A stretch of 64,000 bases of DNA from Escherichia coli (GCF_030013595.1 NZ_CP122768.1); one strand, 5' to 3'. Counted from the stretch's first letter, positions 50,001 through 53,000 are shown. Numbers: made by a program.

Positions 50001-53000
50001 TGCCGTAAACGCCCATAAAGAAGGTTTTAGAATTTACCTGGCTGCCTTCACCGCTGACATTTCCCTGCAAATAGGTCAGACGGCTGGTGCCCTTAACATG
50101 GATTTTGCCGCCGTTGGAGACATTAAAATAGCCGCGATCGTGTCTCATGCCTGAGTTTGATTCATACAAATCATCAGCATATAACTCGCTGCCAGCATTG
50201 GAGACATTCAGGAACCCCGTACCTTTCAGCAAAAAGTTAAGTGGGCCATTGATTGTTACCTTTCCTCCGGTAATATCCAATCCACCACCAGAAGCGAGAG
50301 TCAGACGCGGACGGGAAGTATCTGTCGCATTGATTACCAGATTGGCATTGTCAGTCACCGTAATACGGTAATCGATGCTCTGGTTCTCTTTGCCAAAATC
50401 AATAGTTTTATCCTGGTTTACGATGACATCATCGGCGAATACCAGAGATGAATATAAACTTATCGCGCTAATTAAAACAGCCCGGGACTTTTTTCCTTTT
50501 ACTCTGCTCCCCAGCTCAGAGCAGACGCTCCAACAGTTACGGGACCTGTTCCACTTTAGCCGATATATTTTATTCATCACAATCTCCAGCAATACATCCA
50601 AATAAAACCAAGATTGCATAAACAGCAACGCATTAAATGCCATTCCGGTTACTGTTCATCGCATATAAAAATTCAAAAATTTTGCATAGCATTGGCAACC
50701 ACATATCTGAGTATGTAGTTCAGAGGGTAATAAAATAGCAAGCTATTACTTAAAACTTATTTTAAGTTAACACTCTTAACTTTATCATTACATTCCCCCC
50801 CAGTCTCTAATACCTGCGCATTATATGTATCCAGGAACTCAAATCAACTCAAAATATAAACAAAAGCAGGAGAAATACATTTAATATACAGCCGGTAAAA
50901 GTAGTAACTCTTATTAGGTATCCAAATATAAGAATCGTCTTATTAATAAATATATAACCCTATAGGACTGAATCCATTCAGCTAATACAAAATAAAATCG
51001 TTAATTAATAAAATATAAAATCATGAAGTGATACAAGAGGAATTTCAGGATATGACATGACAATCATATATAATATATGCATAATTTTTTACAGCGAGTC
51101 AATGATTCCCGCGCCATATGCAGACATGGCGCGGTTTTATGCAATAACAATCACGCGTCCGGGAACATCACGCTATGGCCTGGCGCTTCACGATGGAGAT
51201 GGATAAAGTTAAGGTGCCGCTCGTACTGGTCGAGAATATCGGTGATCACCTGCTCTTTGCTGTAGTCCATCAGGTCGTTGCCCTGGCTGCCTTCTAACAG
51301 GAAGGTTTCCAGCCGGTAGTAGGTCGATTTCCCGCTACGTGCGCGGTAGGTAAAGCCCGGCACCGAATATTGCTGCGGCCAAATCTGATAGACAAAGTTT
51401 TGCTCTTCGCCCATATGCACCAACAAATCCAGATGCCCCAACTGTTGTCCCTCTTCCGGCGGCAGGCTTTTTAGCTCCACGTACGCGCCGCGCAACCGCA
51501 GCTCCTGCGCCACTTCTTCCATTGCCGGGTAACAGACCGTCTCCATCATCTGTTTAGTGTAACGCGTGCCCGGATAATTCATCAGGCGCGAGAGACGTTT
51601 TTTCCAGCTCAGGCGATCCTGAAGCCCCAGCGGTCGCGGCGCGGTATCACGGTTGGCACTTTCACGGCGGTAATCTTCTACCTTCAGAGATTTATACAAC
51701 CCCGCCATCACGAAGAAAATCACAAAGCTGAACGGCAGACCCATAATCACCGTGGTGTTTTGCAGCGCGGATATCCCGTTGGTCATCAGCATGCCAAGCG
51801 TCAGCAGGCCAATCGCCACCGACCAGAAGACGCGCAGCCAGCCGGGGGCGTCGCTGTTGATATCTTTAAGCTGCGAGGTGAAATTCCCCAGCACCAGCGC
51901 CCCGGAGTCCGCCGAGGTCACATAAAACAGCAGGCCAGTAATGGTGGCGACGGAGGCGCTAAAGGTAAACGCCGGATACTGCGCCAGCAGGCTGTAGAAG
52001 CCGCGCTCCGGATGGACCATCGCTTCCTCGGCAAATGCCGCGCCGCCGTGGATGATTTCATACAGCGCGCTATTGCCGAACACCGAGAGCCATAACAGCG
52101 TGAAGGTAAACGGAATAATCAACGTGCCCAGCACGAACTGGCGAATGGTACGCCCACGCGAGATACGCGCCAGGAACAGGCCGACAAACGGCGACCATGC
52201 CACCCACCATGCCCAGAAGAAGAGCGTCCAGTTATTCATCCACTCAACCGGACGGTCGAAGGCAAAACTGTTGAGCGTCATGCCCATAAAGCGATTCACA
52301 TAGTCGCCAACGTTCAGCACCAGCGCATTAAGCAGGAACGAGGTGTCGCCCATAAACAGCACGAACAGGATCAACCCCAGCGCCAGCGCAACGTTGAGTT
52401 CCGATAACACGCGAATGCCCTTATCGACACCGGAGGTGACAGAGATCGTGGCGATGATCACCGACAAGGCGATCAGTGCCGCTTTCGCCGCCATTGAATC
52501 GGGAATATCAAACAGTACGCTCAAGCCATAGTTAAGCTGTACCACACCGATACCGAGCGTAGTGGCAATACCGAAGATGGTGCCGATTACCGCTGCAATA
52601 TCCACTGAATGACCAATCGGCCCGTTAATCCGTTTACCGAAGATCGGGTACAGCGCCGAGCGGATGGTGAGCGGCAAATTATAACGATAGCTAAAGTATC
52701 CGAGCGCCATGCCCATCAGCGCATACATCGACCAGCCGGTTAAGCCGTAGTGAAACAGCGTCCAGACCATCGCCTGACGCGCAGCCTCAATCGTCTGACC
52801 CGCGCCTTCCGGCGGCTGCATATACTGCGTTACCGGTTCGGCTACGGAGAAGAACATCAGGTCGATACCGATCCCGGCAGCAAACAGCATCGCCGCCCAA
52901 CTCAGCAGACTGAATTCCGGTTTGGATTGTTCTGGCCCGAGCTTCACCGAACCAAAACGCGAACAAGCGATACAGACCACAAAGACAATATAGAGCGTTG

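What the first reader, a model, noticed from the sequence alone, without database searches (positions are those of the whole stretch)
51109..51142. Terminator-like hairpin beside betT is oriented antisense to betT
Seen: 9-bp GC stem followed by TTTTAT on the plus strand, 9 bp from the betT stop, whereas betT is on the minus strand and its transcript has no U-tract after the hairpin. Inference: it may stop plus-strand transcription coming from the autotransporter/IS10 side, shielding betT from antisense readthrough, or act bidirectionally.
Basis: partly seen in the sequence, partly recalled or inferred. Interest (0 to 1): 0.25.

Follow-up and report, generated by a model that had tools for sequence, protein, structure and literature searches.

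The report
betT 3' hairpin missing its U-tract
The hairpin is real, but it is the ordinary end-of-gene hairpin of the choline transporter gene betT, a two-way terminator design that in this strain's version of the neighbouring DNA has lost the U-run on the betT side, so only its antisense face still looks like a terminator.

Summary
A perfect 9-bp, GC-rich hairpin lies at 51109-51134, followed by TTTTAT on the + strand. It sits 16 nt beyond the stop codon of minus-strand betT, and the betT RNA has no U-run after it.

Comparison changes the reading. The hairpin, the A/T run and the spacer occur in 5181 of 5426 complete E. coli genomes. They form the outer edge of the conserved bet block, and similarity to other strains stops exactly at the hairpin base.

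Three flank versions exist:
- In about 2068 genomes (e.g. Nissle 1917) the betT RNA continues UUUCUCUU. There the hairpin scores as a better terminator for betT than for the antisense strand.
- In about 1680 genomes (K-12) it continues UUUCUCC, with a stem mismatch.
- In about 1398 genomes (O157:H7, O104:H4 and this window, all with ehaA downstream) the U-run is replaced by GAAUCAUU.

No credible + strand gene ends here. The IS10 copy is a rare, recent insertion, shared at this site by one other genome.

Best reading: this is betT's own A-run/hairpin/U-run terminator. In this haplotype it is degraded on the sense side and probably acts only as a pause and 3'-end protector. It keeps incidental antisense termination ability. 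No 3'-end data were found. The finding is ordinary and of low interest.

The parts
51109..51134 (.). Inverted repeat (hairpin). Arms are 51109-51117 and 51126-51134, loop 51118-51125. On the betT (minus) RNA it forms 11 bp with a 4-nt loop. On the + strand RNA it forms 9 bp with an 8-nt loop.
   Evidence: Single copy in the window. Present in 5181 of 5426 E. coli genomes; identical in the sequences read apart from the K-12-type stem change.
51135..51140 (+). TTTTAT: the U-run of the + strand terminator face. On the betT RNA it is the A-run (AUAAAA) that precedes the hairpin.
   Evidence: Identical in all haplotypes examined.
51141..51150 (-). Rest of the 16-nt spacer between the betT stop codon and the hairpin (betT 3' UTR).
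51151..53184 (-). betT, choline BCCT transporter, 677 aa. Stop codon TGA at 51153-51151.
   Evidence: Annotated betT in the matching genomes.
51041..51108 (.). Haplotype-specific sequence abutting the hairpin base. Read on the betT strand it starts GAATCATTGACTCG and stands where other E. coli have TTTCTC(T/C)T. Similarity to K-12-type and Nissle-type genomes ends at 51108/51109.
   Evidence: (matches start at query position 470/472)
50644..51108 (.). AT-rich (24-36% GC) spacer between betT and ehaA. It is presumably the ehaA regulatory region. No terminator-like site lies on the minus strand within it.
   Evidence: The corresponding K-12 spacer is H-NS bound (PMC3946193; bioRxiv 10.1101/2021.10.01.462762). 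Extending that to this haplotype is inference.
51057..51085 (+). Promoter-like match ATGACA-17-CATAAT (10 of 12), 24 nt upstream of the hairpin on the + strand. This is a consensus match only. It would give an RNA of about 49 nt ending at the T-run.
   Evidence: The total number of such matches in the 10-kb region equals the shuffle expectation (11 vs 11.0).
49144..50643 (-). 5' fragment of ehaA (autotransporter adhesin), same strand as betT. Context only.
47819..49147 (+). IS10-like element (ISVsa5 family, IS4 family transposase 47926-49134) inserted in ehaA. The outside end is at 47819. Context only.
45256..47874 (-). 3' fragment of ehaA (passenger end and beta-barrel). Context only.

Best explanation
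The hairpin belongs to the betT transcription unit. It is betT's own 3'-end hairpin, built on the classical symmetric plan of A-run, GC-rich hairpin and U-run. That plan can stop RNA polymerase from either side.

In most E. coli the betT RNA continues UUUCUCUU or UUUCUCC after the stem. The window carries the ehaA haplotype, in which everything distal to the hairpin base is different sequence and the betT-side U-run is absent.

Consequences, all inferred:
1. Polymerase transcribing betT pauses at the hairpin but is released poorly. It reads into the AT-rich, untranslated ehaA leader and is stopped there by Rho and/or H-NS-bound DNA. 3'-to-5' exonucleases then trim the RNA back to the hairpin, which fixes and protects the betT mRNA 3' end.
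2. The A-run on the betT side reads UUUUAU on the + strand. Any + strand transcript that reaches the hairpin, for example from spurious promoters in the AT-rich spacer, would be terminated 9-11 nt before it enters the betT coding region. This is a by-product of the symmetric design, not a function tied to ehaA or IS10.
For: Shown:
- The hairpin, A/T run and spacer are conserved in 5181 of 5426 genomes, while the flank falls into three unalignable or strongly diverged haplotypes. The break lies exactly at the stem base.
- Haplotype C (2068 genomes, including Nissle 1917) has a perfect stem plus TTTCTCTT. Its terminator score is higher for betT sense (+11.3) than for antisense (+6.7).
- Haplotype B (1680 genomes, K-12) has TTTCTCC and an uncompensated stem mismatch.
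- Haplotype A (1398 genomes; O157:H7, O104:H4, this window) has GAATCATT and a sense score of -43.
- The sense-strand RNA forms the longer and more stable hairpin (11 bp, -18.3, against 9 bp, -16.2 kcal/mol).
- The position is that of a gene-end terminator, 16 nt after the stop. In 79 betT loci of other genera the flank is not homologous. Yet 34 have a canonical sense terminator within 150 nt of the stop, and 11 of those also score on the antisense side.
- No + strand gene ends here.
- No other minus-strand terminator-like site lies between the hairpin and ehaA.

From the literature:
- Stable stem-loops without U-runs mark and protect the 3' ends of Rho-dependent E. coli transcripts, with rut sites just downstream (Dar & Sorek 2018, PMC6061677).
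- The first 120 nt after the hairpin on the betT RNA are mildly C>G (C/G 1.3-1.6).
- The equivalent K-12 spacer is H-NS bound and silenced.
Against: - No experimental 3' end, on either strand, was found for this site. The one Term-seq table that could be searched (K-12, PMC7815308) lists only an internal betT 3' end and nothing at the gene end. betT is probably barely expressed in those conditions.
- There is no covariation. The stem is invariant apart from one uncompensated change in the K-12 type, so structure is supported by conservation and position only.
- The direction of change (U-run lost versus gained) is not polarised, because no Escherichia outgroup could be retrieved.
- UUUCUCUU is itself a mediocre U-run, and the K-12 version scores below threshold on both strands.
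- The C>G bias downstream on the sense strand is weak, so Rho action there is conjecture.
Confidence: 0.6

Rival explanations
1. Dedicated antisense shield. The element is maintained because it terminates + strand transcription heading into betT, whether from the ehaA regulatory region, from antisense ehaA transcription, or from IS10.
For: - In this window only the + strand face meets terminator criteria.
- TTTTAT is invariant in all haplotypes examined.
- Termination would occur 9-11 nt before the betT coding region.
- The adjoining spacer is 24-36% GC with promoter-like matches on the + strand. The K-12 counterpart is H-NS bound. From general knowledge, such regions are a setting for spurious promoters.
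- Three betT loci in other genera (L004, L061, L066) also score clearly better on the antisense side.
Against: - No + strand gene or conserved ORF lies upstream.
- The IS10 insertion is shared by 1 of 5426 genomes.
- The hairpin occurs with the same A/T run in genomes without ehaA.
- In the commonest haplotype the sense face scores higher.
- The sense RNA makes the better hairpin.
- An A-run before the hairpin is a normal part of sense terminators (general knowledge), so its conservation needs no antisense function.
- + strand RNA from further left crosses a C-rich, G-poor stretch (C/G up to 3.3 at 50724-50883) that favours earlier Rho termination.
- The promoter-like count equals the shuffle expectation.
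Confidence: 0.2
2. Terminator of a very short antisense RNA. A promoter at 51057-51085 (+) starts transcription near 51092. The hairpin and UUUUAU end it near 51140, giving an RNA of about 49 nt specific to the ehaA haplotype.
For: This is the best-scoring + strand promoter-like match in the 10-kb scan (10 of 12), 24 nt upstream of the hairpin. The geometry resembles a minimal sRNA: a single-stranded 5' part followed by a terminator hairpin.
Against: It is a consensus match in very AT-rich DNA, and the number of matches equals chance. There is no Rfam match at E<=10. The promoter part is absent from 73% of genomes that keep the hairpin. The U-tail is short for an Hfq-type sRNA. There are no expression data.
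Confidence: 0.04
3. DNA-level element. The palindrome is a protein-binding or recombination site, and that is why haplotype boundaries coincide with it.
For: All three haplotypes break exactly at the stem base. In strain RMDEC465 a divergent betT allele also reverts to ordinary flank sequence near the hairpin.
Against: - It is single copy per genome (median 1 place) and per window, unlike REP or attC-type targets.
- No integrase or transposase is associated with the boundary in K-12-type or Nissle-type genomes.
- The other end of the variable segment, near the pdeL start, shows no similar palindrome in the comparison made.
- A boundary at the edge of a selected gene-end element is expected without any special mechanism.
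Confidence: 0.05
4. Non-functional leftover or chance palindrome with no role in transcription on either strand.
For: There is no covariation and no expression evidence. The K-12 type tolerates a stem mismatch.
Against: Perfect hairpins of at least 9 bp are about 6-fold enriched over simulation in the window. The 42 non-coding nt are invariant next to hypervariable sequence. The position is the same as that of terminators after betT in other genera.
Confidence: 0.05

Closest known systems
Canonical intrinsic (Rho-independent) terminators with A-run, GC hairpin and U-run (e.g. rrnB T1, lambda tR2)
   Same: GC-rich stem of 9-11 bp, a short loop, a position 16 nt after a stop codon, and an A-run before the stem. 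In haplotype C a U-rich tail follows, and its score lies in the range of the reference terminators scored with the same script (rrnB T1 14.6, tR2 17.5, haplotype C sense 11.3).
   Different: In the window the sense-side U-run is absent (score -43). Only the opposite strand retains a short run, UUUUAU (score 6.7).
Bidirectional terminators between convergent genes (Ju et al. 2019, as summarised in bioRxiv 10.1101/2022.10.23.513370)
   Same: One hairpin-encoding element that can pause or stop polymerases arriving from both sides.
   Different: Those elements lie between convergent, expressed gene pairs and are proposed to work through head-on collisions. Here the neighbours (betT, ehaA or pdeL) are co-directional, and no + strand transcription unit is known.
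3'-terminal protective stem-loops of Rho-dependent transcripts (Dar & Sorek 2018, PMC6061677)
   Same: A stable stem-loop at a gene end that is not followed by a U-rich sequence, with untranslated RNA downstream. This is the proposed behaviour of the window's hairpin on the betT RNA.
   Different: Rho dependence and exonuclease trimming are untested here. The downstream C>G bias is weak.
REP/BIME extragenic palindromes
   Same: A GC-rich extragenic palindrome just after a gene. Several Enterobacter betT loci do carry REP-like repeats at this position (L006, L009, L010, L013, L015).
   Different: The E. coli hairpin is single copy per genome and per window and has no REP consensus.

Membership tests
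Intrinsic terminator, + strand (antisense to betT) | GC-rich stem-loop (stem of at least 5 bp, loop 3-8 nt) | tested here: met
   9 bp, 7 G-C pairs, 8-nt loop, -16.2 kcal/mol
Intrinsic terminator, + strand (antisense to betT) | U-rich tract immediately after the stem | tested here: met
   UUUUAUGC, 5 U in 8; T-score 3.49; d = +6.7. This is a short run, so moderate strength is expected.
Intrinsic terminator, + strand (antisense to betT) | Lies at the end of a transcription unit on that strand | tested here: not met
   No + strand gene lies upstream within 2 kb. The + strand ORFs of 49 and 62 aa run through the hairpin. IS10 is a rare insertion.
Intrinsic terminator, + strand (antisense to betT) | RNA 3' ends mapped at the U-run | not testable with these tools
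   No dataset with this site was found.
Intrinsic terminator, minus strand (betT sense), window haplotype | GC-rich stem-loop just after the stop codon | tested here: met
   11 bp, 4-nt loop, -18.3 kcal/mol, 16 nt after TGA
Intrinsic terminator, minus strand (betT sense), window haplotype | U-rich tract immediately after the stem | tested here: not met
   GAAUCAUU; T-score 0.33; d = -43. The feature is met in haplotype C (UUUCUCUU, d = +11.3) and borderline in K-12 (d = -10).
Bidirectional terminator (convergent-gene type) | Located between convergent, transcribed genes | tested here: not met
   betT and ehaA (or pdeL) are on the same strand.
Bidirectional terminator (symmetric A-run/hairpin/U-run type) | A-run upstream and U-run downstream, so that both strands read hairpin plus U-run | tested here: not met
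   Only one side remains in the window. Both sides are present in haplotype C.
Protective 3' stem-loop of a Rho-dependent transcript | Stable stem-loop without a U-run at the steady-state 3' end | tested here: inconclusive
   The sequence features fit. The 3' end itself is not mapped.
Protective 3' stem-loop of a Rho-dependent transcript | Read-through increases with bicyclomycin, and a rut site lies just downstream | not testable with these tools
   Only a weak C>G bias (C/G 1.3-1.6) in the first 120 nt.
REP/BIME element | Many copies per genome with the REP consensus | tested here: not met
   Median 1 place per genome and 1 match in the window with up to 3 mismatches.
Any curated RNA family (Rfam 15) | Covariance-model match | tested here: not met
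   0 matches at E<=10 in 50400-51400, both strands.

The most novel reading that the evidence does not exclude
In the ehaA haplotype (E. coli lineages that include O157:H7 and O104:H4) the missing U-run makes the betT terminator leaky. Osmotically and choline-induced betT transcription would then read through the 465-bp spacer into ehaA, which has no other terminator-like site in front of it. Expression of an adhesin would become coupled to osmotic stress. Strains of the Nissle/K-12 type, which keep a U-run, would insulate the downstream gene (pdeL).
Probability: 0.08. Interest if true: 0.35.

Novelty: new member of a known kind. Interest (0 to 1): 0.12.

Why it matters
It matters little in itself. 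This is a gene-end hairpin of a familiar type.

The useful lesson is methodological. A terminator that looks 'backwards' in one genome can be the remaining half of a symmetric terminator whose other half was replaced at a core/accessory boundary. Judging the orientation of such an element needs a population comparison.

If the sense-side defect has consequences, it would create a strain-specific difference in how well betT is insulated from the adhesin gene ehaA. This is testable with simple reporter constructs, because three natural variants of the same hairpin exist.

Tried and rejected
- **Rfam scan** of 50400-51400 at E<=10: nothing.
- **Repeat/REP idea:** one copy in the window and one per genome.
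- **Covariation:** impossible, because the stem is invariant apart from one uncompensated K-12 change.
- **Other genera:** homology of the hairpin was sought in 80 betT loci. The 3' flanks are not homologous, so only positional analogy could be used. No Escherichia or Shigella species appeared among the 80 loci kept, so the ancestral state could not be polarised.
- **Experimental 3' ends:**
  - Adams 2021 Term-seq tables list only an internal betT end.
  - The TERMITe supplement has no betT entry.
  - No supplementary files are held for Dar & Sorek, Conway 2014 and the Nanopore paper.
  - Ju 2019 and Thomason 2015 are not held.
  - The RNase targetome paper lists only betT-internal sites.
  - Full-text searches for betT with Term-seq, ehaA or ProQ gave nothing relevant.
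- **IS10 as the source of + strand transcription:** rejected as the reason for the hairpin. The same insertion is in only 1 of 5426 genomes.
- **yahV:** a homologue of this K-12 small protein was looked for in the window spacer. None was seen.
- **Aggregate consensus scans:** the promoter and terminator counts do not exceed shuffles, so they carry no weight on their own.

Full report
**1. What is in the sequence**

The + strand at 51109-51134 reads CCGCGCCAT-ATGCAGAC-ATGGCGCGG. This is a perfect 9-bp stem (7 G-C pairs) with an 8-nt loop, followed by TTTTAT at 51135-51140. It is the strongest terminator-like hit in a scan of 46-56 kb.

The 677-aa minus-strand ORF 51151-53184 is BetT (NCBIfam PRK09928, 1313 bits). 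Its TGA stop is at 51153-51151. On the betT RNA the order is therefore: stop codon, 16 nt ending in AUAAAA, hairpin, then GAAUCAUUGACUCG. No U-run follows.

The hairpin is not a chance feature:
- Fold z-scores are -2.9 (+ strand) and -3.8 (- strand).
- The window holds 8 perfect hairpins of at least 9 bp, against 1.4 +/- 1.3 in simulated sequence.
- The element is single copy in the window.

That gives 11 bp with a 4-nt loop (-18.3 kcal/mol). The + strand RNA forms 9 bp with an 8-nt loop (-16.2 kcal/mol).

**2. Context**

Downstream of betT, on the same (minus) strand, lies a 465-bp spacer of 24-36% GC, followed by the autotransporter adhesin gene ehaA. An IS10-like element at 47819-49147 splits ehaA into ORFs of 499 and 872 aa.

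betT and ehaA are co-directional, and nothing converges on betT. The only + strand ORFs near the hairpin (49 and 62 aa) run through it. Rfam finds nothing on either strand.

**3. Population comparison**

Megablast of 50640-51260 against 5426 complete E. coli genomes finds the betT end and hairpin in 5181 genomes. Only 1398 also share the sequence to the left. In the rest the match starts at query position 470 or 472, which is the first or third base of the stem.

Reading representative genomes and counting with flank-specific queries gives three haplotypes. Together they account for 5146 of the 5181 genomes.

| Haplotype | Downstream gene | Stem | betT-sense tail | Genomes | Examples |
|---|---|---|---|---|---|
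| A | ehaA | perfect | GAATCATT | 1398 | O157:H7, O104:H4, the window |
| B | pdeL (no ehaA) | uncompensated C->A change | TTTCTCC | 1680 | K-12 and B strains |
| C | pdeL (no ehaA) | perfect | TTTCTCTT | 2068 | Nissle 1917, strain 1190 |

The alignment is identical from inside betT through the last base of the stem and unalignable immediately beyond it. BetT itself is the same protein (WP_000131044.1) in representatives of all three haplotypes. The hairpin is thus the outermost piece of the conserved bet block.

**4. Terminator quality on each strand**

A d'Aubenton-Carafa-type score was checked on rrnB T1 (+14.6), lambda tR2 (+17.5) and the his attenuator (+62). It gives the following values.

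| Haplotype | betT sense | Antisense (+ strand) |
|---|---|---|
| C | +11.3 | +6.7 |
| B | -10 | -9 |
| A (window) | -43 | +6.7 |

In the commonest haplotype the element is a symmetric A-run/hairpin/U-run terminator that is, if anything, better for betT. In the window only the antisense face survives. No other terminator-like site lies on the minus strand between the hairpin and ehaA.

**5. Other genera**

Eighty betT loci from other Enterobacterales were retrieved. Their 3' flanks are not homologous to the E. coli flank, so covariation cannot be tested.

The position is nevertheless typical. Of 79 usable loci, 34 have a canonical sense terminator within 150 nt of the stop, 15 score on the antisense strand, and 11 score on both. 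Three loci (L004, L061, L066) score clearly better on the antisense side. The pattern seen in the window therefore recurs without any obvious dedicated function.

**6. Mechanism**

The most likely account, at confidence about 0.6, is as follows. The hairpin is betT's 3'-end element.

In the window's haplotype, intrinsic release of the betT transcript should be inefficient. Polymerase would continue into the untranslated AT-rich ehaA leader and be stopped by Rho and/or H-NS-bound DNA. Exonucleases would then trim back to the hairpin.

This is the behaviour described for Rho-dependent E. coli transcripts, whose steady-state 3' ends sit just after stable stem-loops lacking U-runs (PMC6061677). 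Two further points are consistent with it:
- The first 120 nt after the hairpin are only mildly C>G.
- The K-12 counterpart of the spacer is H-NS bound and silenced (PMC3946193; bioRxiv 10.1101/2021.10.01.462762).

All of these steps are inferred.

On the + strand, the hairpin plus UUUUAU should terminate whatever reaches it, 9-11 nt short of the betT coding region. That competence is real at the sequence level. It is most simply a by-product of the A-run that belongs to the sense terminator.

**7.

It is partly supported. The bidirectional option matches the architecture. The idea of a shield against the autotransporter/IS10 side does not explain the element's existence, for three reasons:
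- The hairpin and TTTTAT are present in genomes with neither ehaA nor IS10.
- This IS10 insertion occurs in one other genome out of 5426.
- + strand RNA coming from that side would cross a C-rich, G-poor stretch (C/G up to 3.3) where Rho is expected to act first.

A promoter-like match at 51057-51085 (+) could in principle make an RNA of about 49 nt ending at the hairpin. Such matches are at chance frequency in this AT-rich DNA, however.

**8. Limits**

- No 3'-end or TSS data for this site could be found.
- The K-12 Term-seq tables that were searchable show only an internal betT 3' end 78 nt into the ORF.
- Whether the U-run was lost in haplotype A or gained in haplotypes B and C is unresolved, because no Escherichia outgroups were retrievable.

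**9. Verdict**

This is a real, conserved, ordinary gene-end hairpin. Its backwards look is a haplotype-specific loss of one half of a symmetric terminator. It is a member of a known kind and of low interest.

The only mildly interesting consequence would be strain-specific read-through from betT into ehaA (probability about 0.08).

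Noticed in passing
window 50966-50982: gACTGAATCCATTCAGC is a near-perfect 16-nt palindrome. It lies in one of only two short islands of similarity between this ehaA-upstream spacer and the K-12 betT-pdeL spacer (92% over 24 nt, L001 2646-2669). From memory it resembles a Cra/FruR box. Cra is a known co-activator at pdeL in K-12. Here the palindrome sits about 325 nt upstream of the ehaA start, which hints at Cra input to ehaA.
   Followed up: partly
window 47819-49147: An IS10-like (ISVsa5 family) element is inserted in ehaA and splits it into ORFs of 872 and 499 aa. The same insertion site was found in only one of 5426 complete E. coli genomes (strain DETEC-P829). The outside end, where IS10's outward promoter lies (from memory), faces the 3' ehaA fragment.
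   Followed up: partly
L001 2999-3026 (K-12 type) versus window 51109-51134: K-12 and B strains (about 1680 genomes) carry an uncompensated C->A change at the second stem position. It weakens the hairpin by about 4 kcal/mol and drops both strand scores below threshold.
   Followed up: yes
L084 2501-2652 (strain RMDEC465): This strain has a divergent betT 3' end, 94% identical to the window against the usual 98-100%. Its hairpin is identical and its flank is an ordinary haplotype C flank, so another recombination boundary lies close to the hairpin.
   Followed up: partly
window about 53107 (78 nt into betT; K-12 coordinate 329541): The Adams et al. 2021 Term-seq tables list an ORF-internal RNA 3' end 78 nt into betT in K-12. 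This may be premature termination or a 5' regulatory RNA. It was not examined in the window.
   Followed up: no
window 7383-7410, 13206-13231, 15693-15716, 58987-59019, 59940-59966, 63133-63161: Six other perfect hairpins with stems of 10-15 bp are present in the window. Their gene context was not examined.
   Followed up: no
L006, L009, L010, L013, L015 (Enterobacter betT 3' flanks): REP/BIME-like repeats (GCCGGGTGGCG...CTTACCCGGCCTAC) occupy the position right after betT where E. coli has the single-copy hairpin.
   Followed up: no
L004, L061, L066: The betT loci of Pseudocitrobacter vendiensis and two Serratia species also have a hairpin with a long A-run before it and a weak U-run after it. 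They score as terminators mainly on the antisense strand. The downstream gene orientation was not checked.
   Followed up: no
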